A stretch of DNA of 64,000 nt from a virus (IMGVR_UViG_2565956708_000007), one strand, 5' to 3'; counted from the stretch's first letter, positions 279-51,598 are shown. Notes: generated by a model not told the origin, from the sequence alone. Translations and numbers: made by a program.

Positions 279-488
279 ATGGCTTTCATTCCACCAACCA
301 TCGACGACGTTAGACATTGCTCTAACGCTTTATCTGTAGACCCCGCCGAAACCGACGCTGCCCGCGCCATTGCTGAACACTACTCAAAGATATCCAATCA
401 GGAGTACCGCATCACCCAAGACGACCTGGATGATCTCACTGACACAATCGAATATCTCATGGCCACTAACCAGCCAGACTCACAATAA
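279..488 (+). CDS. coi: Coi, C1 inactivator (69 aa)
   Basis: 69-aa ORF directly upstream of c1, same strand, size and position match P1 coi; recognised from memory, not searched. Confidence 0.75.
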   Translation: MAFIPPTIDDVRHCSNALSVDPAETDAARAIAEHYSKISNQEYRITQDDLDDLTDTIEYLMATNQPDSQ

Positions 489-504
489 ATGCACTAATAA
501 ATCT
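488..504 (+). promoter_or_regulatory. C1 operator-like site between coi and c1
   Basis: AATGCACTAATAAATCT, 14/17 to operator consensus. Confidence 0.5.
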
Positions 505-598
505 ATTATTTTCGTTGAATCCTTCTATAATGGTGGCCAACAACTCCCAGTGTAATCCGCTGTGAGTTGTTGGCCATGTCAATTCTGGAGGAGGATCA

Positions 599-1450
599 AT
601 GATAAATTATGTCTACGGCGAACAACTGTACCAGGAGTTCGTCAGCTTCAGGGATCTCTTTCTAAAAAAAGCTGTTGCACGCGCCCAACACGTTGATGCC
701 GCCAGCGACGGTCGTCCTGTACGCCCGGTTGTCGTTCTGCCGTTCAAAGAAACTGACAGCATTCAGGCTGAAATTGATAAATGGACTTTAATGGCGCGGG
801 AACTGGAACAGTACCCAGACCTCAATATCCCAAAGACTATTTTATATCCAGTGCCTAACATCCTTCGCGGTGTGCGTAAGGTTACGACTTATCAGACAGA
901 AGCTGTGAACAGCGTCAACATGACCGCTGGCCGCATTATTCATCTGATTGATAAGGACATTCGCATCCAGAAAAGCGCGGGGATCAATGAGCACAGTGCG
1001 AAATACATAGAGAACCTGGAAGCAACAAAAGAGCTAATGAAGCAGTACCCGGAGGATGAAAAATTCCGTATGCGTGTACACGGCTTTAGCGAAACAATGC
1101 TGCGCGTCCACTACATTTCCAGTAGCCCTAACTACAATGATGGTAAATCAGTTAGTTACCATGTGCCGCTGTGTGGTGTGTTTATCTGCGATGAAACTCT
1201 CCGTGATGGAATCATCATCAACGGTGAATTCGAGAAAGCAAAATTTAGCCTTTATGACTCTATAGAACCGATCATCTGCGACCGCTGGCCGCAGGCAAAA
1301 ATATATCGCCTGGCAGATATTGAAAATGTAAAAAAACAAATTGCCATCACTCGCGAAGAGAAAAAGGTCAAATCAGCCGCATCAGTTACGCGCAGCCGTA
1401 ACACTAAGAAGGGGCAGCCAGTAAACGACAACCCCGAAAGCGCGCAATAG
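599..1450 (+). CDS. c1: C1 immunity repressor (283 aa)
   Basis: 283-aa ORF beginning MINYVYGEQLYQEF, recognised as P1 C1; flanked by operator sites and coi. Confidence 0.9.
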   Translation: MINYVYGEQLYQEFVSFRDLFLKKAVARAQHVDAASDGRPVRPVVVLPFKETDSIQAEIDKWTLMARELEQYPDLNIPKTILYPVPNILRGVRKVTTYQTEAVNSVNMTAGRIIHLIDKDIRIQKSAGINEHSAKYIENLEATKELMKQYPEDEKFRMRVHGFSETMLRVHYISSSPNYNDGKSVSYHVPLCGVFICDETLRDGIIINGEFEKAKFSLYDSIEPIICDRWPQAKIYRLADIENVKKQIAITREEKKVKSAASVTRSRNTKKGQPVNDNPESAQ

Positions 1451-1474
1451 TTTCTATCCGGCATGGTCAATGAG

Positions 1475-2959
1475 TTATTCATTAAGCCATGCCAGAGCTT
1501 CATCAACCTGCGCTTCGTCTTCGACGCTAAGCACTTCATCCTGGGGAACATAATCAGCCAGCATAGCGAAACAATATGTATCCCAATGGTCTGGTGAGTG
1601 CAGGTTGAGTTTTTTCTTCATATCCTCCTTACTCATCACCTTCCATTGACCTGCGGAGTTAATCCCTACAGGGATTTTCGACGCTTCCTCAATAGTTTCA
1701 TTACCCTTATCCAGTCTCATACGACCAGATTTTACGGCCTCTGCGGCTTGAACGTTGGCATAAGCACGCTTATCAAAGTACAGGCTCTTATCTTCACGGC
1801 TATGCATCTTTTTACCCCAGCGTATACGCTGTACGGTAATACCATAATACTCGTACATCAGATCCGCCGTTGCTTTACCCAGGCCATCGCCGTCTATCGC
1901 TATGGTGATATTTGGGAATCGCTCAGGATTACATTCTGCGAAAATTTTGGCGGCAAGCTGCGTTTCTGTAACGTCTGTGTATTCCAGCATTCGATAGTTG
2001 ATTACACGGCGTTTATTTCTCTGGCCGGACACCATCATGATATTGATAACGGACTTATCCCGTCCCGTACCACCAGCAACGTCCACACATGCAAGCCAGC
2101 CCCATCCTTTGGCAATCTTGACTTTCCGCCGCGTCGCACGTTCAACCTCATCACGTCCAAGAAGGAAGCCATCCTGTGATTTAGGGAATAGTCCGCGTAC
2201 TTTAATCATGTACATAGGGTTATCACGCCCGCCGTACTCCGCCAGCTTCATTTTGATAAATGCTGGCGTTACCAGCGGTGATTCCTCACTGTTAAGCGTG
2301 ATCGCCGTATAAACGCCATCAGGGTTACCAGGACGCTTGGCCAGTTTATGGTGAGTATCGTAGAAATAGCCGCTTGGGCGTGTAGGCTGTGACAGTAATA
2401 AGATGCGGTTATCCTGTCCGGTAAGAGCACCAGTGATGATACCGAAAGCTCTATCACTGACACCGGAGGCTTCATCGATAATATACAGAAGATGATCTGC
2501 GTGTTCACCGGCGAGAGCTTCTTCACTTCCCAGACGAAAGCCCTTCGGTACTACAGTCCATACACCTTTACCAGTAACCTCATAGAAAGCGGTTTCTGTC
2601 AGAACAAAATAATCAGCAAGCCATGGAAAACGGCTGGTGGCAGTAGCCCAGTTTATCTTGATGTACTTGAATATACCGGTCATTACCTGCTGAATTTTGT
2701 TCGCAACGATAATGGCGCGGGCACCGGGATACATGATTATGAACAACATGATCATGATAGAAGTCATGTCTGATTTCCCGGTACCGTGACCAGACGAAAC
2801 AGATGTCTTGCTACCCTGTTCCTGCACAGACTCAATAATCAGATCCTGCTGCCAGGTAGGTGTTTTGCCGAACAAAACATCAGCGGCCGCAATCCAGTCA
2901 TAACGATATAGCGCCACCAGCTCGCGCCAACGTGGATCCGTTACGCAACTTCTGGCCAT
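1475..2959 (-). CDS. pacB: Terminase large subunit PacB (494 aa)
   Basis: 494-aa ORF immediately downstream of pacA, convergent with c1; size and context as P1 pacB. Confidence 0.85.
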
Positions 2960-4152
2960 TAATCATCATCCCCGTATAGCTTGCGGGTAACTTCTTCGTC
3001 TTCCTCCTCGTCTTCGTCCAGGTCTTGTTCCAGCCATGGGTCGTTTGATACACCTTCAGTATCAACATCTCCATAACCGCCTGTATCAACAATATCGGCG
3101 ATTTCTTCCCTACGCTGCTCAATCCACAATGCGGCATCGGCGCGGCGGTTGGCGGCCCGTTCTCGCGCAACTTTGTCCAGATCTTCAAGAGAAGGGCCAC
3201 CGACGGCTGTTTGCCTTTCCTCATCATCGGTATTGGTCTTAGGAGCACGCAGATCGGCTTTGATTTGCTCCAGCATCAGGGGCGGTACTTTCCCTCCATG
3301 CGCCTCGATGAATTCAGCTGCCTCCAGCACTGACCAGTTGTTTTCACGCTTTCGTTCGTATGCCAGCTTAACAATGCCAGCTTGCCCCATAGACAAAGCG
3401 TGCTTTTCCGCCTCCCGGCTTTCTTTTCGATAGTTATTCCGGATGCTGTAAATGGTGTTGATCAGGCTGCTTATCTGCGCGGAACAGCTGTTTAGCATGC
3501 TCGCGATACGGTATTCAGGCGGAGTTCCTTCATCATCGTCTTTTTGCTGATCGCGCATTTCCTGAACCAAGCGAATACACGTATCCCTGGCGTTCTCCAG
3601 CATAAGGAGATGAGAGAGAGACTTTTCCAGAAGAGTGGTTTCCAGAACATCAGCCCCGGACCGACGCAACATAGCGCGCGCGGCCTTCCGCGCTTCAACG
3701 TTATCTATCAGGTAATCGCCAGCTTCGAATTCAAAGCGTTCACCATCATCATCCAGGGTGTCGCGTTCCAGGCGATCACGTAAGGTCCGGTGGGCGCGGG
3801 TGATCACGTCATGATCATCAGAACGATCATTTATGCGCTTATTCTGGCGCTTCGCGTTCTCGACTGCGGCACTGACAACAGCATTAACTCTTTGTTTTTC
3901 AGCCATTTCAGCCACAATGTGATCACCTGCACGTTGATCATTAGCGTGATCAATGATCATGCTTTTTAGTGGTTTTCTGACAGGCTTATTTGGCTTACGG
4001 CTGTCCGCTGTTCCGGTGTCTTCTTTGAATGCACGGAGATAACGACGTGCGGTGTTTGGGTTGAGATTAAACTCGGCGGCATATTGTGCGATGGTGTAAC
4101 CACCATCTCGCGCCAGGCGAGCAAAATTCTTCTTGTGATCGTCCCAGGTCAC
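2959..4152 (-). CDS. pacA: Terminase small subunit / pac-cleavage protein PacA (397 aa), GTG start
   Basis: 397-aa ORF containing the pac site; acidic C-terminal tail; GTG start preceded by AAGGAAG. Confidence 0.85.
3800..3960 (-). other. pac packaging site: 3 + 4 GATC-containing TGATCA/G hexamers flanking a ~90 bp cleavage region
   Basis: GATC at 3801, 3812, 3824 and at 3921, 3936, 3948, 3955 inside pacA; matches the described P1 pac architecture. Confidence 0.85.
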
Positions 4153-4196
4153 TTATGCTTCCTTTCGTATAAAACTCTTTTTGACGCGAGGGTAAC

Positions 4197-4215
4197 GAAA
4201 GTCACATGTCAAAAG
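4197..4215 (-). promoter_or_regulatory. Putative late (Lpa-dependent) promoter for pacAB
   Basis: minus-strand catgTGACTttcgtTACCCT, TGACT-N5-TANNNT motif shared with three other structural operons in this window. Confidence 0.4.
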
Positions 4216-4238: not shown

Positions 4239-4691
4239 TCAGATACGTGCGGATGTGGCATTACCGTAATGACGGTGCTGACGGACCACCTTATTGAAAA
4301 GTTGACGCGCCATCACCCAAGGCTGGTGCTCCCGGCGTTCCTTTTCGTCCTGCGTCATATAGAGTTCGTTCTGGAGTTTTTCATCAAACCGGCGCGGAGC
4401 GCGGCTGCGGCGAAAGAATTCAGGATTCAGAGAGTGGATCTGAAATCTACGTGGGCGTGTACTGTCATCAATCAAAACAGACGAATACTTAGACACAGCG
4501 ATAGCCTTTAAGCGCAGATAAACATCGCGCTTATCGACATCCAGATGCGGGTATTCCTTTTCAAGAATTGCTGCGAGTTCTTTCGCTGATAGAAGAGATT
4601 TAGTGCGGATCATGTAATCCGCAATCTCGTACGATGTTATTCGTGAGTGATTTATTTCCATGAAGTGGCGTCCCTGCCAGTTAAGTAACAT
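4239..4691 (-). CDS. lpa: Late promoter activator Lpa (150 aa)
   Basis: 150-aa ORF upstream of pacA with a C1 operator-like site 70 bp upstream, as for P1 lpa. Confidence 0.75.
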   Translation of the reverse strand: MLLNWQGRHFMEINHSRITSYEIADYMIRTKSLLSAKELAAILEKEYPHLDVDKRDVYLRLKAIAVSKYSSVLIDDSTRPRRFQIHSLNPEFFRRSRAPRRFDEKLQNELYMTQDEKERREHQPWVMARQLFNKVVRQHRHYGNATSARI

Positions 4692-4761: not shown

Positions 4762-4778
4762 CAATACATTAGAGCAAT
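4762..4778 (-). promoter_or_regulatory. C1 operator-like site upstream of lpa
   Basis: plus strand CAATACATTAGAGCAAT, 14/17 to reverse-complement consensus. Confidence 0.6.
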
Positions 4779-8125: not shown

Positions 8126-8789
8126 GGTCCACCTCATGCTTTTCAGCCACCAGCGGCAATAAAGCCCTGGCCATCTTATGAACCAATAGTGCATCAATAA
8201 TGCCAAGCGTATGCCCCGGCTTAATGTTTAATGCCGCCTCAAGGCGACACCTTTCCAGGCCACTTTTCTCGGCTTGTTTATGATGATCTGGTGTAATAAC
8301 GTCGCCCAAAACACGGCTAATTCTTTCTCGTAATTGCTGGGTGCCAGCACACTTGATCGCTGTATCGTGGAGACGGTTAACCAGTTCGCGATAAACATGC
8401 GGCTTAATTCGGATACGTTCACCGGTGACGCCCTTTCCTGGTGCTGGCACCGAACTATCCGGAATATCCGGATAGTTGCCAGCCTCGTAAGCTACCCGCA
8501 GCCAGTGCATGAATGTTTCAGTGGACACACAACCACAGTCCACATCGATTTTTCCGCGTTGCTGTTCCAGCCACTGCTCAAAATTCAATCTACACGTATT
8601 ACTTTCATGTTGCTCTTTTTGTCTCAAGGCCAGCACCTGTTGGGCCAGTTCCAGAACGATACCGGGTGACGCTAACCTCTCAAATTCCAATAAATAGTTT
8701 GCGTCAGGATGACAAGTAGCCTCGCCTGCAAAAAATACCAATTGCTGTAAGTATGCTGTCGTTAGAGTAGTCATTTCTTTTTGCGCCAT
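8109..8789 (-). CDS. Hypothetical protein (226 aa)
   Basis: ORF in operon context; no motif recognised. Confidence 0.5.
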   Translation of the reverse strand: MAQKEMTTLTTAYLQQLVFFAGEATCHPDANYLLEFERLASPGIVLELAQQVLALRQKEQHESNTCRLNFEQWLEQQRGKIDVDCGCVSTETFMHWLRVAYEAGNYPDIPDSSVPAPGKGVTGERIRIKPHVYRELVNRLHDTAIKCAGTQQLRERISRVLGDVITPDHHKQAEKSGLERCRLEAALNIKPGHTLGIIDALLVHKMARALLPLVAEKHEVDHANES

Positions 8790-9145
8790 TTCTTTTCACA
8801 TTCCTTAGTCCATTTTTCAATGTTCATTTTGGCAATATCAGTCATTCCATCACCTAAGAAATACTTTTTCCGGTACGTCTTGCACTTAAACCACACTACA
8901 ACAGCCACCAGCCAGAAAATAAAAGGCCATACGGCAATACCAACTCCAGCCGCGATAAAGCCCAATATCCATAAATGAAGCTCTCCAACTTCTGTTTCCG
9001 GCAATATTCTTAAAGAATTAAACAGCAGGCTGAACGAATGGTCGTATGCATTGGCAGTATAAGACATGCAATCCATATAATTAAAGTCATAGCCTGCGGC
9101 TGCCGCCCATAATGGGCGGTCAAGAAAATGTTTTAGTGTCATCAT
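8771..9145 (-). CDS. Small membrane protein (124 aa)
   Basis: hydrophobic stretch LWILGFIAAGVGIAVWPFIFWLVAVVVWF; basic C-terminus. Confidence 0.5.
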   Translation of the reverse strand: MMTLKHFLDRPLWAAAAGYDFNYMDCMSYTANAYDHSFSLLFNSLRILPETEVGELHLWILGFIAAGVGIAVWPFIFWLVAVVVWFKCKTYRKKYFLGDGMTDIAKMNIEKWTKECEKKWRKKK

Positions 9146-9151
9146 ATTAAT

Positions 9152-9445
9152 TTAAGGTTCAGACCAGTTATCTTCAATAGCAATGCTTAATCTTTGTAGC
9201 CATTCTGCTAATTTCAGCATTGCTTCTCTTTCGCTTAAACCACACGGAAAATCATCAAGCGATATTGTTGGCTTGAAGTTTCCCAAATTATCCATTTCAA
9301 CGGTCAGATTTTGCTCCAGAACGGTATTTCTTACGCGGCTATTGTGCCGAAGCAAATATACTGAACGTGATTTATTGGTTTTGTGGTCGAACGTATATTC
9401 GGTAAGTATCATCTGACTTCCGCCATGATTATTACCGCGCCACAT
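9152..9445 (-). CDS. Hypothetical protein (97 aa)
   Basis: ORF only. Confidence 0.4.
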   Translation of the reverse strand: MWRGNNHGGSQMILTEYTFDHKTNKSRSVYLLRHNSRVRNTVLEQNLTVEMDNLGNFKPTISLDDFPCGLSEREAMLKLAEWLQRLSIAIEDNWSEP

Positions 9446-9468
9446 AATTACTCCGTGTTAATTGAAAT

Positions 9469-9771
9469 TTAGCTATTAATCTTCACTTTTATCGCGAACA
9501 CCTTTACCGGTTTATCACCGAAGTGTGGATGTGTGATTGTTTTTATTTCATATCCGTTATACGGGACGTCAATTCTGCGACTGAAGTCTTCGCGCTTCGG
9601 ATATCCCTTTGTGATAATCAGGCGGTAATACTTACGGTTAACGAGGCGCTTATTCCAGTAGTCATTACACAGGCGATACTCTTCCGTTTTCTCCCCGCGA
9701 ATCATGGCATCGAAGTATTCACCTTTAACGGCAAGTTGCAGGTTAGCCATTACCTCACCTCCAGTCTCCAT
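9469..9771 (-). CDS. ASCH-like domain protein (100 aa)
   Basis: GEKTEEYR matches the ASCH GxKxxExR signature. Confidence 0.5.
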   Translation of the reverse strand: METGGEVMANLQLAVKGEYFDAMIRGEKTEEYRLCNDYWNKRLVNRKYYRLIITKGYPKREDFSRRIDVPYNGYEIKTITHPHFGDKPVKVFAIKVKINS

Positions 9772-10010
9772 ACCGCCTGACCAATCCGGCTGGCATGGGT
9801 ATCTTTGGATACTGTTCCGTCTTTAGCCAGCTCCATAAGAATTTTGCGCAAATCTGCCGAACGCCATTCTTCATCAGGAAATTCCTTCTCCATTGCCAAC
9901 CGCAGATTCCAGGTTGCCATCCTGAATGGATATTCCCCGCCGAGAGCTTTATCTTGCAGGGCAGCCCGGGAACGCATCACCTGCAAAACCTTCTCTTTTA
10001 CATCCATCAT
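9750..10010 (-). CDS. Hypothetical protein
   Basis: ORF; start trimmed to internal MMDVKEK so that it abuts the upstream gene stop. Confidence 0.4.
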   Translation of the reverse strand: MMDVKEKVLQVMRSRAALQDKALGGEYPFRMATWNLRLAMEKEFPDEEWRSADLRKILMELAKDGTVSKDTHASRIGQAVWRLEVR

Positions 10011-10900
10011 TTCGCCTCCTGCGGCGGTTCTGGTAGCGGCATCCAGAACAAGGCGTTCCCTAACCACGATAAAGTGCCGTCGCTCAACTCCACGTATTCC
10101 CCTTGTACCTGTCCTGCCATATACTCGCCGTGCTTTGAATAAATTAAAATCCAATCATCTTGAGGGGGCATTCGCTCACTACAGCTTATCCAACCATCCG
10201 GAGTTACCGGAACTTGTGGAATGGCTGTCTGCTCTCGAACGTCATTAGGCGCTATAGGTTCTGCTGCCAACTGACTGGCATATTTGTTAATGGTAACGAT
10301 AAGCTCTTGCTCAGCCTCATCCAGACAATCACCGATACCTCGCCTGTCACCGTCAAAATCATCGAAATCGGCACGAATCCTGGCAACCTTCAGGATTGCG
10401 GACAACACCTCACTAGGAATTGCCGGATAGTTGGTTGACGTTTCCGCGATTTCCCGAAAATTATTGGTTGACGAATTCTTGTTTTCCCGAAAGTTTCCGG
10501 ACTGAAGCATGGCGGCGCGGCAGGCGTTCCATATTTCGGCAGCAATATCGCGCTCGCTATCGGTTAATTTGTACGTTGAAACATAGCCAGAGAGCATTTC
10601 TACGTTTTCCGGAGTTGCTTCTTCAGGCACTACCGGTGCTGGAGGGGCGGCGTAAATGCCCTCTATCACTAAATGTTTGCGCTCAAAATCATCTGGCTCT
10701 CGATGATATACGTAACTCCAATCACCAAGGTTATCATTGCGCCTGCAACGGAAACCTATCGGCTCTGCTTCCAGCGATGCCAGAGCAATTCGTGCCAGTT
10801 CTTCCGCTTCTTCTGCTGGCAGTACAACGTTGCTACCAGGTCCGTATGTTTCGCGCCACTGCCTGATTGTCAGCAGTCGCTCTTTGGTAATAGTGATCAT
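10007..10900 (-). CDS. Hypothetical phage protein (297 aa) with N-terminal domain shared with 11775-12137
   Basis: N-terminus MITITKER...ELARIALASLEAEP...WNACRAAMLQ paralogous to the downstream 120-aa ORF; Trp-rich C-terminal domain. Confidence 0.55.
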   Translation of the reverse strand: MITITKERLLTIRQWRETYGPGSNVVLPAEEAEELARIALASLEAEPIGFRCRRNDNLGDWSYVYHREPDDFERKHLVIEGIYAAPPAPVVPEEATPENVEMLSGYVSTYKLTDSERDIAAEIWNACRAAMLQSGNFRENKNSSTNNFREIAETSTNYPAIPSEVLSAILKVARIRADFDDFDGDRRGIGDCLDEAEQELIVTINKYASQLAAEPIAPNDVREQTAIPQVPVTPDGWISCSERMPPQDDWILIYSKHGEYMAGQVQGEYVELSDGTLSWLGNALFWMPLPEPPQEAK

Positions 10901-11412
10901 GCCGCGTTTCCTTCTTTCTTATTAACAATTACACCGTCATATATTTCATTAAGGTGCCCTCTCAACTCCATGCGCCTTAATGCAGATAACATGTAATCGC
11001 ATTCAACCTGCTTATTTCCAGTAAATGGCTTATCGTCAGGATTACCCCAACAGCAATTACCCTTGGGCCACCCATGTACTTTCCGTACTCTTCCGTTAAC
11101 AACGTGAAGTAATCCCCAGCCAGGTGGTAAATCCTCAACTGAAATAATTCCCGGCTCACTAATAAAGAATCGCCAGTCGCCCATTCCAAGAGATGGATTT
11201 TTACGAAAACGCTTTTTTCTATCTGCCAACAAGTCAGCACGAGAACACTTCGCCTCTATCAGGCATGATGCTGAATTTCTGAATCCCATAGCATCTGGCT
11301 GTTCTCCGGTACTGGTTACAGCTATAAAGCGGTCATGAAAACAAACCTTGAACCCGTTGCGCTTAAGGAACTTATACGCAATCTGACAGAGTTCGCGGTG
11401 TGTTAACGCCAT
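10897..11412 (-). CDS. Hypothetical protein
   Basis: start taken at MALTHREL, preceded by AAGGAGAGTGATATGGC, the same initiation context as the gene at 12343. Confidence 0.5.
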   Translation of the reverse strand: MALTHRELCQIAYKFLKRNGFKVCFHDRFIAVTSTGEQPDAMGFRNSASCLIEAKCSRADLLADRKKRFRKNPSLGMGDWRFFISEPGIISVEDLPPGWGLLHVVNGRVRKVHGWPKGNCCWGNPDDKPFTGNKQVECDYMLSALRRMELRGHLNEIYDGVIVNKKEGNAA

Positions 11413-11413
11413 A

Positions 11414-11602
11414 TCACTCTCCTTTAGTGCGCAAGTGGTTTTTCCAGCGGTTTTGCGCCGCGCTGGGCTTTTTGCAAAAACCACAATCCATCATCCCGTA
11501 ATATTTCATCAACCCCATCCGTCGGTTGCTGAGTCTCACCCACTGCCAGACGCCAGGAGCGTTTCTACGAACTAACAGAATCTTTGCTTTACGGTTTTTC
11601 AT
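11414..11602 (-). CDS. Small basic Cys-containing protein (62 aa), uncertain
   Basis: ORF ending one nucleotide before the next start codon. Confidence 0.3.
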   Translation of the reverse strand: MKNRKAKILLVRRNAPGVWQWVRLSNRRMGLMKYYGMMDCGFCKKPSAAQNRWKNHLRTKGE

Positions 11603-11774
11603 CGCTTTGCTCTCCTGCGTCTCTTTGCTGCTCGTCGTGCCGCTGCAATACCGGTATGGCGGCGCTTTGGTGCCGGGATGATGTTGTCAGCCATCAGGAC
11701 ATGTGGCTTTGCAATTAGCGCAGAAGCCCAAAAACGAGTCGGGTACGGTAACAAGCCGAAAAATGCCACACGCA

Positions 11775-12137
11775 TTACTCACCTCCCTTACCCTGAAGCA
11801 TGGCAGCGCGGCAGGCGTTCCAGCCATCAACATAATCAAACGTATTGCTATCGTCTGGATCGATTTCATCCGGCACTACCGGCTCTGGTTGGATAGTGAC
11901 GTTGGCAAAGGCAGCACGCAAACCGGCCTTAATTTCCTCTACTTCATCAGCGCCTAGCGATGAATCTGACAATGCGTGATGGAATGCGTAAGCCATGTCG
12001 TCGTTTACTGCAACCGGTTCGGCTTCCAGTGATGCCAGCGCAATTCGTGCCAGTTCCATTTGTTCGCCACGGGTAAGCCCGTTATCAAGCGGATTTTTAA
12101 TGAATAATTCGATACGTTCTTTGGTAATAGTGGTCAT
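11775..12137 (-). CDS. Hypothetical protein (120 aa), paralog of the N-terminal domain of 10007-10900
   Basis: MTTITKERIELF...ELARIALASLEAEP...WNACRAAMLQ. Confidence 0.5.
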   Translation of the reverse strand: MTTITKERIELFIKNPLDNGLTRGEQMELARIALASLEAEPVAVNDDMAYAFHHALSDSSLGADEVEEIKAGLRAAFANVTIQPEPVVPDEIDPDDSNTFDYVDGWNACRAAMLQGKGGE

Positions 12138-12343
12138 TTGTTAATCCTCAAAACTTTATGCCCGGGCGCAAAAGCACGTGTTTTGTCTTTACTTATTCGC
12201 CACCCGTCTTTACGGGCCTCTTTTGCACAACCAGACCATGACGTACCGATATACTCACCGAAGTCTGGCACTGGATATACACCTTCCGTACACTGGCGGC
12301 AGTCACAATAGAGATGCATGGTGTAACTTGCAGCGATAGCCAT
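12134..12343 (-). CDS. Small Cys-rich protein (about 69 aa)
   Basis: start at MAIAASY with duplicated initiation context; CDCRQC and GC motifs. Confidence 0.4.
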   Translation of the reverse strand: MAIAASYTMHLYCDCRQCTEGVYPVPDFGEYIGTSWSGCAKEARKDGWRISKDKTRAFAPGHKVLRINK

Positions 12344-12344
12344 A

Positions 12345-12977
12345 TCACTCTCCTTTGATGCGAATGCCAGGGGCGCGTGGCACATTAACTTCCACGATGC
12401 GCACAGTTGGTTTGTACATCTCAATCGCAGTCAGCCAGTCAGCGCCAGTCATGCGCTTTTCTGCATCGCCATTAGTCCACTTAACCGGTACACCAATAGC
12501 CTTCATCGCGATTTCTATTTCCCCGGCAATGGCGCTTTTTCCGCAACCAGTAAAACCAGATACAACGACCAGAACTTCACCTTTGGCTGGTTTTATTTCC
12601 CGCTCCTCCAGTTCAGCAATGCGCTTACTCCCATCCGAGATAACACCTTCGTAATACTCACGCTGCTCGTTGAGTTTTGATTTTGTCTCCTCAAGCTCAA
12701 CTCTCAGCTTCCCAACCGTAAGCGCAATATCCTCGTTCTCCTGGTCGCGGGATTTGATGTATTGCTGGTTCCTTTCCCGTTCATCCAGTAGTGCCAGCAC
12801 GGTTTCTGGTCCGGCCAGAAATTTGAAGGCGTTGAGCGCATCAATATCCACACCGTAATCTTTAAGTTCCTGTTCACTTAACAAATCATCATCAGCTGGC
12901 AACATTAACAGGCGTTCCATTGCTGGAATTGCACGTTCCGCCGCCTCACGCAGTGCCTGGTAATTAATTTCGCTCAC
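12345..12977 (-). CDS. Ea22-like protein (210 aa)
   Basis: N-terminus MSEINYQALREAAE and coiled-coil middle resemble lambdoid Ead/Ea22 proteins. Confidence 0.55.
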   Translation of the reverse strand: MSEINYQALREAAERAIPAMERLLMLPADDDLLSEQELKDYGVDIDALNAFKFLAGPETVLALLDERERNQQYIKSRDQENEDIALTVGKLRVELEETKSKLNEQREYYEGVISDGSKRIAELEEREIKPAKGEVLVVVSGFTGCGKSAIAGEIEIAMKAIGVPVKWTNGDAEKRMTGADWLTAIEMYKPTVRIVEVNVPRAPGIRIKGE

Positions 12978-13708
12978 TGGTTGCCTCCTTTGCGAAGCTG
13001 GGCAGCAAAGTCAACTAACCACTCAGTCATTTCAACCTTCCCTACCAGGTCTGAACCAGGGTGCATACAGCAATCACTCTGCGCCGCTTTGAAATCCTTA
13101 TACTCATATTCTTGGGCCACCAGATTTTTTGCAGCTTCTATAGCAGCATCCACGCCCTGCGCCCGCACTTCAGCCAGGAAAGCATCGGTGGCTGGCATAT
13201 TTCCTGTTGCCTTCATGGCCTCCAAAATAACCAGAACGCCATCTCGCCCAACCACCTCAGCGATAACCTCGGTGTTGTCGCCAACAACATCGCAGAATGC
13301 CTGAACTGCCTTACGAGCCAGCTCATTCTCCACTGCCAGCGCCGTGCGATTACCCTCCAGCTCTGCAATGCGCTGTTTTGCGGCATCCAGTTCAATCGAC
13401 AATTTTTCCAACTGCTCTTGATGCTTCTTGTATTCCTGATATGCGTGCCAAGACTGACCTTTGCGCACACTATCAGTGATATCAGTAATCTGTTCTGGTG
13501 TTAGCGTGGTCAGTGGCTGTGATGGGAAAATAAGCACTTTCCCGGAATCCCAATCAAAACCAGCGTGAATTGACTGAACCTCAACTGAAGGTGTTGAACC
13601 AATGCTGCCAGGCGAATGAACAACGATTGTTACATCCATATCGCGACGATGGCTGTGGTTGTTGGACAAAATACGATTCACCAACTCAGAAAATTTGGAA
13701 AATTTCAT
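12974..13708 (-). CDS. Ea22-like protein paralog (244 aa)
   Basis: C-terminal ATDAFLAEVRAQG shared with 13992-14696. Confidence 0.5.
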   Translation of the reverse strand: MKFSKFSELVNRILSNNHSHRRDMDVTIVVHSPGSIGSTPSVEVQSIHAGFDWDSGKVLIFPSQPLTTLTPEQITDITDSVRKGQSWHAYQEYKKHQEQLEKLSIELDAAKQRIAELEGNRTALAVENELARKAVQAFCDVVGDNTEVIAEVVGRDGVLVILEAMKATGNMPATDAFLAEVRAQGVDAAIEAAKNLVAQEYEYKDFKAAQSDCCMHPGSDLVGKVEMTEWLVDFAAQLRKGGNQ

Positions 13709-14028
13709 GCTGATTCCCCTTTCTCTGCTCTCTCCTGTCGGAACATCACTATCATCAGGTCGCCTTTTGTCGCTATCCTGGCTGTTGTACCTGGTTCAAT
13801 GCGGCTAAGCTCAAATGCGTCATAGAACGCTTCTAATGCCTTCTGGCGTAGTTCCTGTTTGCGCCGTTTTTTCCACTGTTTTAGGAAAATGGAACCCAGC
13901 CATCGCCATGTGCGGGACATGATGTAAAGCCAACCGAGAAGTGCCAGACCGGTATTTAGGAGCGTATCGATCGTTATTGTCGTGTCGATATTCACTGGCT
14001 GCTTCCTTTGCGAATCTGTTCCGCCCAT
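13705..14028 (-). CDS. Small membrane protein (107 aa)
   Basis: hydrophobic N-terminal segment; basic region. Confidence 0.4.
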   Translation of the reverse strand: MGGTDSQRKQPVNIDTTITIDTLLNTGLALLGWLYIMSRTWRWLGSIFLKQWKKRRKQELRQKALEAFYDAFELSRIEPGTTARIATKGDLMIVMFRQERAEKGESA

Positions 14029-32518: not shown

Positions 32519-32546
32519 ATTACACTAATAAATTTATTAGAGCAAT
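32519..32546 (-). promoter_or_regulatory. Two overlapping, oppositely oriented C1 operator-like sites with embedded promoter for the tRNA-ban operon
   Basis: ATTACACTAATAAATTT (15/17) overlapping AAATTTATTAGAGCAAT (17/17 reverse complement); -35 TTGCTC and -10 TAATAT on minus strand. Confidence 0.75.
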
Positions 32547-34801
32547 ACACCCAAAACGTCATGAGCTACACCTCGAGTGTCCCCCTTACAAGACACAGAA
32601 CGTCTGGCAAAAAGAGGTTCCACTCTGAAGCCACTGTCATGATAAAGCTCTCTGATGTTTGGCGCGCCACTGTTAGTAATGAGAACCTTTGCACCTCGAC
32701 GATGAGCATCCGTCAACAGAGACACCAGGCGTTTTTGCTCTTCAAACTTAAAGTCATGACCGGAATAGTTCGTGAATCCCTCTGTATTTGGAAGCGGTTC
32801 ATACGGCGGATCGCAAAAGATGACATCTCCTTCTCCGGCAGCTTCAATCACCGCTGCAAAATCACCGCATACAAACTCAGACCGCCCTTCCGCACCGAGG
32901 AAGGCTTCCATCTCCTGTAATGGGAAATACGGAGTTTTATACTTCCCATAACCGACATTGAACTCACCGGCCTGGTTGTAACGCGTCAATCCGTTAAAAC
33001 AATGTCGGTTCAGGAACAAAAACGCCGCTGCGCGATGTAAATCATCATAGACTTGTTTGTTAAACGCATTCCGTACTGCCAGGTATCCTTCCTGTGTGTT
33101 GTAGTCCTGGAAGAAACGATGTGCCAGAGTGATAAGTGAATGCGCCTCGCGTTGCAGAGTCTTGTAAAAGTTAATCAGGTCAGCATTCACATCATTTAGC
33201 AGATTTTCCTGGTATCCGGCATTCATGAAGACAGCTCCGCCACCAACGAAAGGTTCAATCAGGCGCTTCCCTTCTGGCAAATAGCGAAAGATTTGTTCCA
33301 GAACACCAAATTTTCCACCAGCCCATTTGAATATGGACCGTTCGAATTCTGCCGCTGGTTTAACTTTTCGCTCTTTTGTTTCACTTCCTTCTTTCTGCCG
33401 ACATACGGCCTTAGTAATCCGATCGCCAATCCAGCGCATTACTGGTATTGCCATACTATTGCCGATCGCTTTGTAACGCGGTCCGTCAGCTGCAAGCATC
33501 GCGGCCTCTTCTTCGCTTAAATCTGGATAGTGATTGCGAAGATATGCCAGTTCATCTGAATTAACTTTTTTACGCTTTTCCGTCGGGATCAACGTATGCC
33601 CATCAGGAAAACCTTGCAGCCTTTCACATTCGACAGGGGTAAGACGGCGGACAGCTACTTCTGCGTTTCTTACTTCATAGCAAACAGCTGTTGGATTTTT
33701 AGCCATTAGAGATGGTGAAGTATTCTTAGTTGCAGCATGTTGTGTACCGCTCATACGCTCAGGAAAAGCCAATGTAACAAGATGCTCATGGCTTTCTTGC
33801 TCACGTGCCCGCAATGTACCATGCCCTTCTGACCAAAAACCTGCTCCTGTGCTGCTAAAAACGGCAAGGTCAGTGGCATCTTTAAAATCTCTTGCCTTTA
33901 CTGTCGATGCGGTTTCATCGTCAATATATTCCCCAAATGCTGCCATCCTGAAAGCGTTTACGGCTTTCGTCGATTTCATACCGGGTGGCATGTCAGCGTG
34001 TAGGCATGGATTTAGGCTTTCGCCACTGATTGCAGCGCCATTTGCAATAATGGCGGAAGCGATTTCCTTCTTTTTTCGGCTCGGCGCAATATTCCGGCGC
34101 ACGCCTTCGAACTCAAAAAGTACCGTTGCGGGATCGAGGTCTGTTCGAGCACTTGCGACAACAAACACGCGTCGGCGTCGTTGTGCCACTCCGAAGTATT
34201 GGGCATCAAGGATTCTCCAGGCCACCTTTCGCTGCGGTCCATAAATACAACCACACTGCGGCCACTTTGGAGCATGGCAACCGGTTTTGCCATCCCACCG
34301 CCAGAACGCGTTACTTTTTCCTGATTCAGGTCGATCACCTGGTTCAAATGGCGCATCTTCTCCAGCCAATCCGGCAAGGAAACATCCGAAGGCGTTATCT
34401 GCCGATGACAGGACTCCTGGGACATTTTCCCAGACGATAACTGTCGGTTTGAGAAATGACTCAGCCCGTTTGTCGTCAATTGCATTTGCAAGCTCCACAT
34501 ACTTTAAAGTTAGCGCGCCACGCTCATCATCAAGCCCACCACGTAATCCAGCGATACTGAATGCCTGACAAGGTGTTCCCCCGACGAGCACATCAGGGGA
34601 TTCGATTTCCCCAGCCAGGACTTTTTTGGCAAGTTTTGTCATGTCGCCAAGGTTGGCGACATGGGGCCAGCGGTGCGCAAGAACGGCAGATGGAAAAGGC
34701 TCGATTTCAGCAAACCACGCCGGACGCATACCCAACGGTTCCCAGGCAATACTCGCGGCTTCAATTCCACTGCAAACAGATCCATAGCACAGCTCTTTCA
34801 C
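32537..34801 (-). CDS. dmt: Dmt, bifunctional DNA methyltransferase (N-terminal C5-cytosine MTase fused to C-terminal Dam-like N6-adenine MTase)
   Basis: GGTPCQAFS (PCQ motif IV) and ENV motif N-terminally; DPPY motif C-terminally; 754 aa. Confidence 0.9.
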
Positions 34802-35703
34802 TGCTTAGCCTCTCCACCAAGGGCATTTACCAGAGCATCAACCAGGCACGAAATTTCACTGGTCAACAGGAAGAAATCTGCGTCCAGTCGCTGCGCTACA
34901 TCTTCACTATCAATATCAGAGTTCTGATCAAGCAATTCATCCGCAAATTTGACGCTGGTAAGGCTGAAGTTATGGTCCAGTGTAAATTTAATGCGGTTCT
35001 GCCAGTCGAGTGCCAACTTAGTGACGAGCTTGCCAGCTTCCAGGTGTGTGGAAATTTCATCGCTTCCCAAATCCTGCTTTTTCACTCGGGCAATACCGCC
35101 ATCCTCAAGCACTGCCTTAAGTTCTGCCGCATCCCCCATTTGAAATCCCTGTGGAGCACTACCATCACGTACCCAGTCGGTCAGCGTTAATTCAATGGGA
35201 TTTTCAACACTCAGGGGAACAACAGGAAGAGAACCCAGAGACTTACGCATAAGCGCGAGCATATCCTCTGCCTGCCGCGCGCTGGCATTGATATAGATAC
35301 GTTTAGTTGAACCGTCGTAGATCGCCTGGATAACAGAAAACTTTGAAAAAGCCCGTGGCAGAAGAGAATGCAGAACTTCGTCTTTCAGGGAGTCCTTCTC
35401 TGTTTTCTTCAGTTTACGCGCTTGTTCTTGCTCAAGTTTTTCAATTTTTTCTTGAATAGCTCGCTGGATAACCGGCGGGGGAAGAATTTTTGTTTCGCGC
35501 TTTGCTTCAACAAGGATAAAACCATTTCCATGCATAGCGATAACTTCGGAATTATCACCAAATGGAGATACAAAACCGAACTTGGCCATATCCTGACTAC
35601 CGCATGGCGTGAAAAGGATCATTTTCTTTTTATCTTCTAAGTCGGTCAGATCCGCCTCACGAGAAAGTTTATAAATAGTAATGTTTTTCCAGTGCTTAAA
35701 CAT
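34798..35703 (-). CDS. hrdC: HrdC, RdgC homolog (recombination-associated protein)
   Basis: strong resemblance to E. coli RdgC along the whole length ([11 protein letters not shown]..., [21 protein letters not shown]); start placed at MFKHWKN. Confidence 0.85.
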
Positions 35704-35980
35704 GTTGTAACCCTTGAATATCAACCACAGAAAGCTCGTCTTTGTAGAAAAAGGCCAGGTTGTGGCACCCCCTCGTTTGAGCGTATGAGCTGGGACCAAT
35801 TTCGTTCTTCCAGACAAATGGCTTCAAATCCGTACGGCGAAGCATAAAAACGCGATTTGTTCCGCTCTGATTCCCAATGAGGCAAAAGCCTTCTTTCACC
35901 TTGATAGCCTGCAAGTTGTCGAGTTCACCGCTGGTTACACGGCTATCGAACTCTTTGCGGCTTATTAGCTCCATCTGCAT
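35696..35980 (-). CDS. Small protein upstream of hrdC (possibly P1 uhr); start uncertain
   Basis: ORF between operator at 36052 and hrdC. Confidence 0.4.
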
Positions 35981-36051: not shown

Positions 36052-36068
36052 ATATTTATTAGAGCAAT
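36052..36068 (-). promoter_or_regulatory. C1 operator-like site for the uhr-hrdC-dmt operon
   Basis: plus strand ATATTTATTAGAGCAAT, 16/17. Confidence 0.7.
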
Positions 36069-37870: not shown

Positions 37871-38263
37871 ATGTCTGATAAAGTAACAGTAAAGCAAACT
37901 ATCAACAAAGCGACTTCAATCTACAAAATTGAGCACATCACTGTTGGCAAGCCAGGATCTGAACAATACCGTCATGCTTTCGAGCTTGCCGCTCAGCTTG
38001 GTTTAAAACACCCGGATTGCATTGAGCATGTATTTCCGACCTATGCTGATGAGCAATGTACTCATGTTCTTACCGAAGAGGATTTTTTCAGCACTGAAGA
38101 ACGAGAAGGCGTTGATCGCTGCATTGGTGTGATTTGCTCTTCAGTGAGTTATGAGTTATTCCCTAATGTCCATGAAAATGGTGGTATTGGATACCAATTC
38201 CTGTACGAAGGCGATGAGCTTAAATGTTATGAACATGGTCTTCTTATCGAAAGCGTAGAATAA
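37871..38263 (+). CDS. Hypothetical protein (130 aa)
   Basis: ORF upstream of origin. Confidence 0.5.
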   Translation: MSDKVTVKQTINKATSIYKIEHITVGKPGSEQYRHAFELAAQLGLKHPDCIEHVFPTYADEQCTHVLTEEDFFSTEEREGVDRCIGVICSSVSYELFPNVHENGGIGYQFLYEGDELKCYEHGLLIESVE

Positions 38264-38299
38264 TACCCTTCCTTCCAACCGGCTATGTTGGCCGGTTTA

Positions 38300-38400
38300 T
38301 TCAACTTATCCACAGCATAGATCCAATAAACAGATCCCAAAGAGAACCTAGGAAGATCCAAAGAAGATCCCGGATCGCTGTAAGCCGCGCCGTTCATGGC
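38300..38400 (+). other. Plasmid origin core: DnaA box and cluster of six GATC (Dam) sites
   Basis: TTATCCACA at 38306-38314; GATC at 38320, 38333, 38355, 38366, 38373, 38410, mostly within AGATCC heptamers. Confidence 0.75.
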
Positions 38401-38417
38401 CTGAAACGGGATCAACA

Positions 38418-38522
38418 TTGACTATACGCGATTTTATGTTGACTGTGTGCGATTTTATGTTGACTGCACGCGATTTATTGTTGACTATACGCGACAGAAA
38501 CGTTGACTGTACGCGATTTTAG
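38418..38522 (+). repeat. Five direct iterons upstream of repA (incC-type)
   Basis: TTGACTRYRCGCGATTTTATG units starting at 38418, 38439, 38460, 38481, 38503 (21-22 bp period). Confidence 0.85.
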
Positions 38523-38597
38523 AGCCTGAATATTCACAGCTGTTGATAACAGTCATCTAAATTAACGCCAGGCCGCGCCACACATGGAGAAACCACG

Positions 38598-39482
38598 ATG
38601 CCGGAAGAAAGTAAAGGCTTCCTTAGCGTTGAAGAAGTTGCAGGAAATACAGGAGAAATCCACAGCCTGAAGCCCAATAACAACAGCACTATACAACCTA
38701 TCGCTTTGTTGCGCTTAGGTGTGTTTGTGCCAACCTTAAAATCTACCAATGTGGCACTACGTCGCGGATCGTCAGTTACAACAAACACAACGAACGCAAC
38801 TGAAGAACTATCAAGCCTCAAAATTGTTGAGCAGGAAGGCTATGAGGGAATTGAAATTCATGGTCCACGCCTGGATATGGATACTGATTTTAAGGTGTGG
38901 GTGGGCATAACCTCCGCGTTGTTTGACTACGCACCTGATGATGACGGCATAATCACCCTGCCATTCTCCGAGTTTGCCGATCGATGCGGCTATCCACGTA
39001 AGCGCCTTTCAAAGGCGTTCCGTAAAAGTATTGATGACTCTCTGACACGCATTCAGCAGACAGTTGTCAAATTCCGCTTCCCGGCGGCAAAAGGTCATCT
39101 CAATAACATTAACGTCAACTTGTTGGCATATAGCAGCCTGAATACCGAGCTTGATGTTATCGAGATCCAGCCGCAGAAACAGCTATCTGAACTTTACTAT
39201 GTTGACTATAAGCGAATCCTGAAGCTGAAGATGCTGGATAAACTAGGGCGCAAAGAGACGGCCAAGGTACTGTATACATTCTTTGAGGCTCTACCCGCCA
39301 ACCCGGCACCTGTCAGCATTGAGCGCCTTAGAGCGAGGCTTAATCTCAAATCATCCGTTAGCGTGCAAAATAGCGTTATCAGAAAAGCCATGAAAGATTT
39401 GGAAGCTATTGAATATCTTAAATTTTCAGAGATAAAAAACGGCAGGAAAATCGGCTTCCAGATCCATAAGCGCAATCCATAA
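38598..39482 (+). CDS. repA: RepA plasmid replication initiator (P1/P7 family, divergent from P1 RepA)
   Basis: shares blocks with P1 RepA (PVALMRLGVFVP, GPRLDMDTDFK, FVIVHSRNP-like end) but differs in the N-terminus and in iteron sequence. Confidence 0.85.
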   Translation: MPEESKGFLSVEEVAGNTGEIHSLKPNNNSTIQPIALLRLGVFVPTLKSTNVALRRGSSVTTNTTNATEELSSLKIVEQEGYEGIEIHGPRLDMDTDFKVWVGITSALFDYAPDDDGIITLPFSEFADRCGYPRKRLSKAFRKSIDDSLTRIQQTVVKFRFPAAKGHLNNINVNLLAYSSLNTELDVIEIQPQKQLSELYYVDYKRILKLKMLDKLGRKETAKVLYTFFEALPANPAPVSIERLRARLNLKSSVSVQNSVIRKAMKDLEAIEYLKFSEIKNGRKIGFQIHKRNP

Positions 39483-39745
39483 TATTGACTATATGCGATA
39501 GCGAGAAGTTGACTATAGGCGACATTCGTTGACGCTGGTGGATTTTTGCTGGCGTCAATATTCTGCAAGTCGCTATTGAGATGGCTTTTAGGGGCATTTC
39601 ATCGCGTATAGTCAACGTTTCTCCCGACAATATCTTACATAGTCGATCTTTGGTGGAGTTAAATCGACTACAGTCAACTTTTGACTGTAGTCACATCGCG
39701 CATAGTCAACTATTCACATTAACCTTCGCGCATAGTCAACATTTG
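39483..39745 (+). repeat. incA-type iteron array downstream of repA, iterons in both orientations
   Basis: TTGACTATATGCGA, TTGACTATAGGCGA, TTGACTGTAGTCA direct; TCGCGTATAGTCAA, TCGCGCATAGTCAA (x2), GACTACAGTCAA inverted. Confidence 0.75.
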
Positions 39746-39774
39746 CGCGGTTCTCATCAAGCAGTGGTATTGAT

Positions 39775-40584: not shown

Positions 40585-40591
40585 CACTGAT

Positions 40592-40746: not shown

Positions 40747-40752
40747 CTTTCG

Positions 40753-51510: not shown

Positions 51511-51598
51511 TTAGAGCAAATTTTTCTAACTCGATCCAGATCGGGTTGGACGATCTGCTCAGAAACCTGCCAGTTTGCTGGCAGGTTTTTTTCTTTTG

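What the first reader, a model, noticed from the sequence alone, without database searches (positions are those of the whole stretch)
3800..3960. pac site with 7 Dam sites, and a Dam-type methyltransferase domain on the same element
pac carries GATC-containing hexamers in 3 + 4 arrangement inside pacA; the element also encodes dmt with a Dam-like DPPY domain fused to a C5-cytosine methyltransferase domain. The phage can therefore methylate its own pac and origin GATC sites independently of host Dam, and the fused C5 activity may protect against restriction.
Basis: partly seen in the sequence, partly recalled or inferred. Interest (0 to 1): 0.35.

Follow-up and report, generated by a model that had tools for sequence, protein, structure and literature searches.

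The report
Phage P1 packaging site and methylase
This is the textbook packaging-start site (pac) of a P1-like phage-plasmid, with seven Dam-methylation sites inside the pacA gene, and the phage's own well-known Dam/C5 fusion methyltransferase (Dmt) lies 29 kb away, so the finding is real but already known.

Summary
Window 3800-3960 holds seven GATC sites, three at 3802/3813/3825 and four at 3921/3936/3948/3955. All sit in TGATCA/G hexamers inside a 397-aa ORF (2959-4152, minus strand).

The window is a P1-like phage-plasmid (Punavirus), reverse-complemented relative to P1. The ORF is pacA and the stretch is P1's 161-bp minimal pac site. All seven hexamers, the IHF site and the mapped cleavage positions are identical to P1. 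The 4+3 pattern recurs in about 58 of 63 IMG/VR pacA loci, and 6 of 7 hexamers survive in a relative whose PacA is only 71% identical.

dmt (32537-34801, minus strand, 754 aa) differs from P1 Dmt at 6 residues. Its N-terminal half is a C5-cytosine methylase with intact motifs. Its C-terminal half is a Dam-family domain with DPPY.

Methylation-gated pac cleavage, and the need for P1's own methylase in dam-minus hosts, were published in 1988-1990.

The C5 activity has not been tested.

Side observation: the C5 target-recognition region is a shuffled cassette among P1-like phages, and some alleles carry an intein in the catalytic motif.

Verdict: already known, low interest.

The parts
3800..3960 (-). 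pac, the 161-bp minimal packaging site, inside pacA
   Evidence: Gap-free alignment to P1 pac at 98% column identity, with all hexamers invariant. P1 annotation. Literature description of the 161-bp pac (PMC10028697).
3920..3959 (-). HEX4: four TGATCA hexamers (3920-25, 3935-40, 3947-52, 3954-59); this is the upstream side in the pacA reading direction
   Evidence: conserved in 52+ of 63 IMG/VR loci.
3801..3829 (-). HEX3: three hexamers (3801-06 TGATCA, 3812-17 TGATCA, 3824-29 TGATCG on the pacA strand)
3868..3877 (.). Staggered pac cleavage positions, transferred from P1 by homology (P1 90804-90813)
   Evidence: P1 feature table; gap-free offset of 1399 between L001 and the window.
3885..3897 (-). 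IHF binding site (AAACAAAGAGTTA), identical to P1
   Evidence: P1 annotation at L001 2486-2498; invariant columns in the alignment.
2959..4152 (-). pacA, pacase subunit A, 397 aa, N-terminal HTH
   Evidence: 95.7% aa identity to P1 PacA; annotated pacA in phiW39, SJ46 and P1; weak Pfam HTH_23 match.
1475..2959 (-). pacB, pacase subunit B / large terminase, 494 aa
   Evidence: 88.7% aa identity to P1 PacB; annotations.
4189..4207 (-). Late promoter LPpac (Lpa-dependent), identical to P1
   Evidence: sequence read.
4239..4691 (-). lpa, late-promoter activator; its C1 operator Olpa lies at 4762-4778
32537..34801 (-). dmt, 754-aa fusion methyltransferase. The C5-cytosine half is roughly residues 1-470 (PCQ motif at nt 34565-34573). 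The Dam half is residues 487-754 (DPPY at nt 32801-32812).
   Evidence: Pfam and NCBIfam dam/dcm. PDB E. coli Dam match, E 3.5e-57. Six aa differences from P1 Dmt.
34798..35980 (-). uhr (35696-35980) and hrdC (34798-35703), the upstream genes of the dmt operon
36052..36068 (-). C1 operator Odmt (Op68), overlapping the -35 of Pdmt
   Evidence: One mismatch to the C1 operator consensus; identical to P1 Odmt in the alignment.
38306..38520 (+). Plasmid origin oriR: DnaA box at 38306-38314, GATC repeats at 38320, 38333, 38355, 38366, 38373 (plus 38410), then five iterons upstream of repA
51533..51555 (-). Three Dam sites at the -35 of PkilA (P53), the promoter of the lytic replicon kilA-repL; the C1 operator OrepL lies next to it at 51504-51520
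   Evidence: Same 13/6-bp spacing as the P1 features 'Dam methylation site 1-3'.

Best explanation
Window 3800-3960 is the pac site of a P1-like phage-plasmid, and dmt is that phage's own Dam-type methylase. The proposed sequence of events is as follows.

1. When C1 repression is lifted, Pdmt (operator Odmt) expresses uhr-hrdC-dmt and Plpa (operator Olpa) expresses Lpa. Lpa then turns on the late promoter LPpac, so PacA and PacB are made. The promoter and operator sequences are shown here. Their regulation is inferred from P1.

2. The Dam half of Dmt, together with host Dam if present, methylates the adenines of the seven GATC sites in HEX4 and HEX3. This is inferred from P1 experiments.

3. 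PacA/PacB bind the two hexamer clusters, and IHF/HU bend the roughly 90-bp spacer. The pacase then cuts in the centre, around 3868-3877, but only when the sites are methylated. Unmethylated pac is not cut, and hemimethylated pac is bound but not cut. This is taken from the literature.

4. Headful packaging then runs from the cut toward pacB and c1, which is decreasing window coordinates. This is established P1 knowledge and was not tested here.

Methylation state therefore licenses and limits pac cutting on replicating concatemers. Carrying dmt makes that step independent of the host's dam genotype.

The C5 half of Dmt is most likely an active cytosine methylase that modifies progeny DNA. Its target sequence and its role are unknown.
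For: - Identity of the element: pacA/pac is 94.9-99.9% identical to P1, P7, SJ46 and phiW39, with pacA/pacB annotated under the match. The whole window is collinear with P1-like phages.
- pac anatomy: all 7 hexamers, the IHF site and the cleavage region are identical to P1 in a gap-free alignment.
- Selection on the hexamers: 52 of 63 IMG/VR pacA loci share the exact seven positions and hexamer sequences, and about six more differ by a single change. In L060 (PacA 71% identical), 38 of 42 hexamer columns are conserved against 84 of 159 elsewhere, Fisher p = 2.5e-6.
- Not a peptide repeat: the hexamers sit in two different reading frames and encode different residues (M-I, D-H, D-Q, D-R, V-I).
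- Statistics: the hexamer cluster was never reached in 100,000 random placements.
- Dmt: Dam domain E 1e-56 (Pfam), NCBIfam dam 249.7 bits, E. coli Dam structure 2g1p E 3.5e-57 with DPPY and the NRxxxNG...R.YN..GEFN segment aligned. It differs from P1 Dmt at 6 of 754 residues.
- Regulation: Odmt, Olpa and LPpac are conserved. dmt is listed among C1-controlled lytic genes (PMC4713147).
- Published function: PMC10028697 describes the 161-bp pac with HEX4, HEX3, IHF and cleavage site, and reports that synonymous recoding of the hexamers lowered P1 titre about 9-fold. PMC12707154 states that P1 needs GmATC at pac and that dmt is essential in Dam-minus hosts.
Against: Nothing in the sequence argues against this reading. 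All functional steps are transferred from P1 by homology, and no methylation or cleavage data exist for this particular element. PacB is only 88.7% identical to P1 PacB, although identical alleles occur in described phages such as SJ46 and phiW39. The primary papers (Sternberg & Coulby 1987-1990; Lobocka 2004) could not be opened, so they are cited only through reviews and GenBank notes.
Confidence: 0.95

Rival explanations
1. The GATC cluster is a by-product of the PacA coding sequence (repeated Asp-His / Asp-Gln dipeptides, GAT-CAx) or of chance, and has no function as DNA.
For: Five of the seven hexamers are read as N-GAT-CAx/CGx codon pairs (D-H, D-Q, D-R). A 7-GATC cluster appears in 0.75% of random placements.
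Against: Two hexamers are in another reading frame (M-I, V-I). In L060 the flanking amino acids change while the hexamers stay (p = 2.5e-6). The full hexamer cluster was never reached in 100,000 simulations. Synonymous recoding of the hexamers reduces P1 packaging (PMC10028697).
Confidence: 0.01
2. The GATC cluster works mainly as a SeqA-sequestration, replication-origin or transcription-control element, like oriC or oriR, rather than as a packaging signal.
For: GATC clusters in this same window do mark the plasmid origin (38320-38413) and the PkilA promoter (51533-51555).
Against: There is no DnaA box or iteron near 3800-3960; the only DnaA-box matches are at 26542, 38306 and 50155. The site is internal to a late gene. 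The mapped P1 cleavage and IHF sites lie exactly between the two hexamer groups. Binding of a hemimethylation-specific factor may still modulate pac, which is compatible with the main explanation.
Confidence: 0.03
3. This rival concerns only the C5 half of Dmt. It proposes that the C5 half is vestigial, or serves something other than anti-restriction such as regulation, and that Dmt is in practice just a Dam enzyme.
For: Recent work and many annotations treat Dmt simply as an N6-adenine or 'DNA adenine' methylase. The P1 record says only 'perhaps' for C5. No paper reporting m5C made by Dmt was found.
Against: C5 motifs I, IV (GTPCQAFS), VI (ENVPG), VIII (QRRRRVF), IX ([15 protein letters not shown]) and X (GNSMAIPV) are intact and invariant across five alleles. 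The region between motifs VIII and IX exists in at least five modular variants while the rest of the protein stays 96% or more identical. An intein sits at the catalytic Cys in 22 of 79 sampled alleles; inteins typically occupy sites whose function is under selection. This pattern fits an active enzyme with changing specificity.
Confidence: 0.3

Closest known systems
Bacteriophage P1 pac site (Sternberg & Coulby 1987-1990; annotated in AF234172 / NC_005856)
   Same: Same position in pacA and the same 161-bp extent. The seven hexamers, the spacing, the IHF site and the cleavage region are identical. It has the same flanking LPpac, lpa and pacB.
   Different: There are nine substitutions in the 201 aligned bases, all outside the hexamers. 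The pacA/pacB alleles are of the phiW39/SJ46 type rather than the P1 type.
P1 Dmt (GenBank AAQ14041, 'bifunctional DNA methyltransferase')
   Same: Same 754-aa length, C5-then-Dam architecture and target-recognition-region type. It sits in the same uhr-hrdC-dmt operon behind Odmt, with Oban overlapping its 3' end.
   Different: Six amino-acid differences. At residue 74 the window, like P7, SJ46 and RCS47, has G (GGTPCQ), whereas the sequenced P1 c1.100 strain has W.
E. coli Dam (PDB 2g1p) and T4 Dam
   Same: The Dam half aligns over its full length with E. coli Dam (E 3.5e-57). It keeps DPPY and, by my reading of the alignment, most DNA-contact residues known from the Dam-DNA structure (K9, N120, L122, R124, N126, N132, Y138 equivalents) (residue roles are from memory of Horton et al. 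2006).
   Different: It is fused to a C5 methylase, is phage-encoded and C1-repressed, and scores below the NCBIfam equivalog cut-off for host Dam (244 against 441 bits).
Multispecific C5 methyltransferases of temperate Bacillus phages (SPR, phi3T, rho11s)
   Same: Both are phage-borne C5 methylases with a long, modular region between motifs VIII and IX. In P1-like Dmt alleles the modules recombine in different combinations. The review describes the Bacillus case as anti-restriction by arrayed recognition domains (PMC12707154).
   Different: No sequence relationship was tested. Multispecificity of Dmt is only an inference from module patterns, and no target sequence is known.
P1 oriR and PkilA Dam-controlled sites
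   Same: The window keeps the DnaA box plus GATC-repeat block of oriR and the three GATC sites at PkilA.
   Different: The five iterons next to the GATC block, and repA, are of a different type from P1 and match RCS47 and relatives.

Membership tests
P1-type pac site (Punavirus) | Lies within the 5' third of pacA, upstream of pacB | tested here: met
   pac covers pacA nt 193-353 of 1194. pacA is 2959-4152 (-) and pacB is 1475-2959 (-).
P1-type pac site (Punavirus) | Seven TGATCA/G hexamers, four on one side and three on the other, about 90 bp apart | tested here: met
   matches the description in PMC10028697.
P1-type pac site (Punavirus) | Central cleavage region with an adjacent IHF site | tested here: met
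   The sequence is identical to the P1-annotated cleavage positions and IHF site. Cleavage itself was not tested.
P1-type pac site (Punavirus) | Pacase genes driven by an Lpa-dependent late promoter (LPpac) | tested here: met
   LPpac at 4189-4207 is identical to P1, and lpa is at 4239-4691.
P1-type pac site (Punavirus) | Cleavage requires adenine methylation of the GATC sites | not testable with these tools
   Known for P1 (PMC12707154, PMC10028697). Testing it here needs an in vivo or in vitro pac cleavage assay on methylated and unmethylated DNA.
P1 Dmt fusion methyltransferase | Dam-family (D12 class) domain with a DPPY catalytic motif | tested here: met
   Pfam PF02086 E 1.1e-56; TIGR00571 249.7 bits (cut-off 114.85); DPPY at residues 664-667.
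P1 Dmt fusion methyltransferase | C5-cytosine methylase domain with the catalytic PCQ, ENV and QxRxR motifs in the same polypeptide | tested here: met
   PF00145 E 2.8e-36; TIGR00675 117.4 bits (cut-off 100.65); motifs read directly from the translation.
P1 Dmt fusion methyltransferase | Synteny: Odmt-Pdmt-uhr-hrdC-dmt, followed by Oban and tRNA genes | tested here: met
P1 Dmt fusion methyltransferase | Methylates GATC adenines in vivo | not testable with these tools
   Inferred from near-identity to P1 Dmt and the published P1 dam work.
P1 Dmt fusion methyltransferase | Methylates cytosine C5 at a defined target | not testable with these tools
   Not established even for P1; the GenBank note says 'perhaps'.

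The most novel reading that the evidence does not exclude
The C5 half of Dmt is an active, modular and possibly multispecific cytosine methylase. Its recognition modules are shuffled among P1-like phage-plasmids: at least five combinations were seen between motifs VIII and IX, next to an almost invariant Dam half. Its catalytic PCQ motif is a homing site for a LAGLIDADG intein. On this reading Dmt couples a fixed housekeeping function (licensing pac cleavage) to a fast-evolving anti-restriction function in one protein. This is not excluded by my evidence, but it may already be catalogued, for example in REBASE, which I could not consult.
Probability: 0.35. Interest if true: 0.35.

Novelty: already known. 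Interest (0 to 1): 0.08.

Why it matters
The finding does not open a new question. Methylation-gated pac cleavage and the phage-borne Dam of P1 are classic results, and they are already exploited in P1 phagemid engineering. Its practical value is for annotation. It fixes the identity and orientation of the window as a P1-like phage-plasmid, places pac, the cleavage point and the likely packaging direction, and shows that three Dam-sensitive control points (pac, oriR, PkilA) and the dmt operon are intact in this element. The only part still open experimentally is what the C5 half of Dmt methylates and whether that protects against restriction.

Tried and rejected
- Primary papers: I tried to open Lobocka 2004 (PMC523184), Sternberg & Coulby 1990 (PMC54894), Abeles & Austin 1987 (PMC553761) and Abeles et al. 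1993 (PMC206955). None is held, so these are cited only through reviews, reference lists and GenBank notes.
- C5 literature: searches for work on Dmt C5 activity, or on an intein in it, found nothing specific.
- Internal late promoter: I checked whether the internal late promoter annotated in P7 dam (LPdam2) is present in the window's dmt. The best match has 2 mismatches in 19 nt, at codon 412, and P1 has the same sequence. This is inconclusive and was not used.
- Origin-type explanation for the pac cluster: rejected, because no DnaA box or iterons lie near it.
- Coding artefact: rejected on the reading-frame and L060 comparisons.
- Searches not run: the large protein searches and structure prediction, because the Pfam, NCBIfam and PDB matches and the 99% identity to P1 Dmt already settle the identity. 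They would not reveal the C5 target.
- Not resolved: whether the divergent pac-bearing contig L060 also encodes a Dmt. Only the best 80 of 401 Dmt loci were returned.

Full report
**1. Observation**

Window 3800-3960 contains seven GATC sites: three at 3802, 3813 and 3825, and four at 3921, 3936, 3948 and 3955. Each sits in a hexamer. On the + strand these read TGATCA six times and CGATCA once; the last reads TGATCG on the minus strand. All seven lie inside a 397-aa ORF on the minus strand, 2959-4152.

GATC is not over-represented in the window overall (249 observed, 251 expected), so this is a local cluster. Seven GATC within 157 bp arose in 0.75% of 20,000 random placements. Seven YGATCA within 160 bp arose in none of 100,000 placements. 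Only one other stretch reaches five or more sites per 160 bp, at 38320-38413.

**2. What the element is**

The 1.4 kb around the site is 99.9% identical to phages phiW39 and SJ46 and 94.9% identical to P1. pacA, pacB and lpa are annotated under the match. The rest of the window is collinear with P1-like phages (Punavirus) and with many roughly 95-kb E. coli, Klebsiella and Salmonella phage-plasmids. The window is reverse-complemented relative to the P1 map. Gene positions are:
- c1 at 599-1450 (+)
- pacB at 1475-2959 (-)
- pacA at 2959-4152 (-)
- lpa at 4239-4691 (-)

PacA is 95.7% and PacB 88.7% identical to the P1 proteins.

**3. Anatomy of pac**

A gap-free alignment with P1 shows all seven hexamers unchanged. 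The nine differences from P1 in 201 columns all fall outside the hexamers.

Transferring the P1 feature table with the constant offset of 1399 gives these positions:
- the staggered primary cleavage positions at window 3868-3877
- the IHF site at 3885-3897 (AAACAAAGAGTTA, identical to P1)
- the late promoter LPpac at 4189-4207

This matches the published description: a 161-bp pac inside pacA, with seven TGATCA/G hexamers in HEX4 and HEX3 groups flanking an IHF site and the cleavage site (PMC10028697).

An eighth TGATCG hexamer lies just outside the minimal site at 3773-3778. It is also present in P1 and in most relatives.

**4. Evidence that the hexamers are selected as DNA**

Among 63 pacA loci from IMG/VR, 52 have the exact same seven positions and hexamers, and about six more differ by a single change.

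The most divergent full-length relative is L060, with PacA 71% identical. It keeps six of the seven hexamers. Across the alignment, 38 of 42 hexamer columns are identical against 84 of 159 elsewhere (Fisher p = 2.5e-6).

The hexamers are read in two different frames and encode different residue pairs (M-I, D-H, D-Q, D-R, V-I). In L060 the neighbouring residues change while the hexamers persist. A peptide-repeat or chance origin is therefore rejected. Synonymous recoding of the hexamers is reported to reduce P1 titre about 9-fold (PMC10028697).

**5. The methyltransferase**

ORF 32537-34801 (-) encodes 754 aa. Family and structure matches are:
- Pfam C5 DNA_methylase at the N-terminus, E 2.8e-36
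- Pfam D12-class Dam domain at residues 493-725, E 1.1e-56
- NCBIfam dam at 249.7 bits and dcm at 117.4 bits, both above their cut-offs
- the E. coli Dam structure 2g1p aligned over residues 487-750, E 3.5e-57, including DPPY

The protein differs from P1 Dmt at six residues. The P1 record calls Dmt 'bifunctional ... methylates DNA at N6 adenine in GATC sequences and perhaps at C5 cytosine'.

The C5 motifs are all present: CSGIEA (I), GTPCQAFS (IV), ENVPG (VI), QRRRRVF (VIII), [15 protein letters not shown] (IX) and GNSMAIPV (X).

The domain order is C5 at the N-terminus and Dam at the C-terminus.

**6. Regulation**

A scan with the C1 operator consensus finds 12 sites where 0.34 are expected by chance. 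They include:
- Odmt at 36052-36068, upstream of uhr-hrdC-dmt and identical to P1
- Olpa at 4762-4778
- the bivalent Oban at 32519-32546
- OrepL at 51504-51520

dmt is reported among the C1-controlled genes induced in the lytic cycle (PMC4713147). Dmt is therefore a lytic-phase enzyme.

This matters for the interpretation. In the prophage state the plasmid origin must depend on host Dam. [quoted passage not shown] A dam-negative lysogen lacking GATC methylation would therefore not refute the hypothesis. The right material is induced or virion DNA.

**7. Other Dam-sensitive sites in the window**

The second GATC cluster is the plasmid origin. It has a DnaA box at 38306-38314 and GATC repeats at 38320, 38333, 38355, 38366 and 38373 (plus 38410). 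These align with P1's DnaA box and its five 'Dam methylation sites in incC'. Five iterons and repA follow.

The iterons and repA are not of the P1 type; they match RCS47 and relatives.

A third group, 51533/51539/51552, has exactly the 13/6-bp spacing of P1's 'Dam methylation sites 1-3' at the -35 of PkilA (P53), the lytic-replicon promoter.

**8. Mechanism**

The best-supported mechanism is the P1 one.
1. De-repression gives Dmt and Lpa.
2. Lpa turns on LPpac, so PacA/PacB are made.
3. Dmt, and host Dam if present, methylates the pac GATCs.
4. Pacase with IHF/HU binds HEX4 and HEX3 and cuts between them only when the sites are methylated.
5. Headful packaging follows.

The review literature states that P1 needs GmATC at pac and that dmt is essential in Dam-minus hosts (PMC12707154). 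It also describes a model in which pacase binds hemimethylated pac and cuts after further methylation (PMC10028697).

Here the sequence features are shown directly. All activities are inferred by homology.

**9. Side analysis of the C5 half**

Aligning Dmt from the window, P1, P7, SJ46 and RCS47 shows that all length variation lies between C5 motifs VIII and IX, which is the target-recognition region.

Among 81 proteins (the window plus the 80 best of 401 IMG/VR loci, so a biased sample), there are five variants of this region: 171, 127, 89, 279 and 224 aa. They are built from recurring modules in different combinations. Meanwhile the Dam half stays 96% or more identical, and DPPY is present in all 81.

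In 22 of 79 alleles, spread over three recognition-region types, a roughly 341-aa insertion splits the catalytic motif (GTP | C...HN | CQAFS). In RCS47 this insertion matches Pfam Hint_2 and LAGLIDADG_3, which makes it an intein with a homing endonuclease.

This pattern favours an active C5 enzyme with changing specificity, which fits an anti-restriction role. It remains an inference, and no paper testing it was found.

**10. Verdict**

The feature is already known, and this window holds another copy of it in a P1-like phage-plasmid. Interest is low.

Noticed in passing
window 8359-13968: GATC desert. Only 2 GATC occur in 5.6 kb where 18-21 are expected from local composition, and GC is a normal 0.43-0.49. 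The stretch coincides with a non-P1 accessory block (ASCH, eaa, DUF551, ead/Ea22-like and hypothetical genes) shared with lambdoid and Stx phages. It was probably imported from a lineage under GATC counter-selection.
   Followed up: partly
window 33650-34180 (dmt codons ~208-384); loci L005, L006, L120, L131, L133, L138: The region of Dmt between C5 motifs VIII and IX (the target-recognition region) exists in at least five modular variants among P1-like phages. The window, P1 and RCS47 have 171 aa, P7 has 89, SJ46 has 224, and others have 127 and 279. The Dam half is nearly invariant.
   Followed up: partly
L007 (RCS47) 438-3725; also L103-L108, L111-L112, L114, L130-L137 and others: A roughly 341-aa intein (Pfam Hint_2 + LAGLIDADG_3) is inserted exactly at the catalytic Cys of the C5 PCQ motif of Dmt. 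It occurs in 22 of 79 sampled alleles, across three different recognition-region types. It is absent from the window.
   Followed up: partly
window 38417-38520 and repA (38598 onward): The plasmid replicon is not of the P1 type. The DnaA box and GATC block align with P1 oriR, but the five iterons (GATTTTATGTTGACTGTGTGC-like) and repA match RCS47 and 'RepFIB'-annotated relatives. P1 covers only 19% of window 38000-40800.
   Followed up: partly
window 51533-51555: Three GATC sites with 13/6-bp spacing correspond to P1's annotated Dam methylation sites 1-3 at the -35 of PkilA (P53). The C1 operator OrepL lies next to them at 51504-51520, and a terminator-like hairpin lies just upstream on the + strand.
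   Followed up: yes
window 3773-3778: An eighth TGATCG hexamer lies 22 bp beyond HEX3, outside the 161-bp minimal pac. It is present in P1 and in about 58 of 63 IMG/VR pacA loci.
   Followed up: partly
window 34580-34582 (Dmt residue 74): The window, P7, SJ46 and RCS47 have G74 (VGGTPCQ), whereas the sequenced P1 c1.100 mod749::IS5 strain has W74 (VWGTPCQ), next to the catalytic motif IV. This could be a laboratory-strain change affecting the C5 activity.
   Followed up: no
window 24-53185 (12 sites): Twelve matches to the 17-bp C1 operator consensus occur where 0.34 are expected by chance. They include Olpa (4762), Oban (32519/32530), Odmt (36052) and OrepL (51504), so the P1 immunity regulon is intact.
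   Followed up: partly
window 29634-29709, 31710-31863: Three tRNA genes (Met-CAT, Thr-TGT, Asn-GTT) lie downstream of dmt, as in P1 and P7.
   Followed up: no
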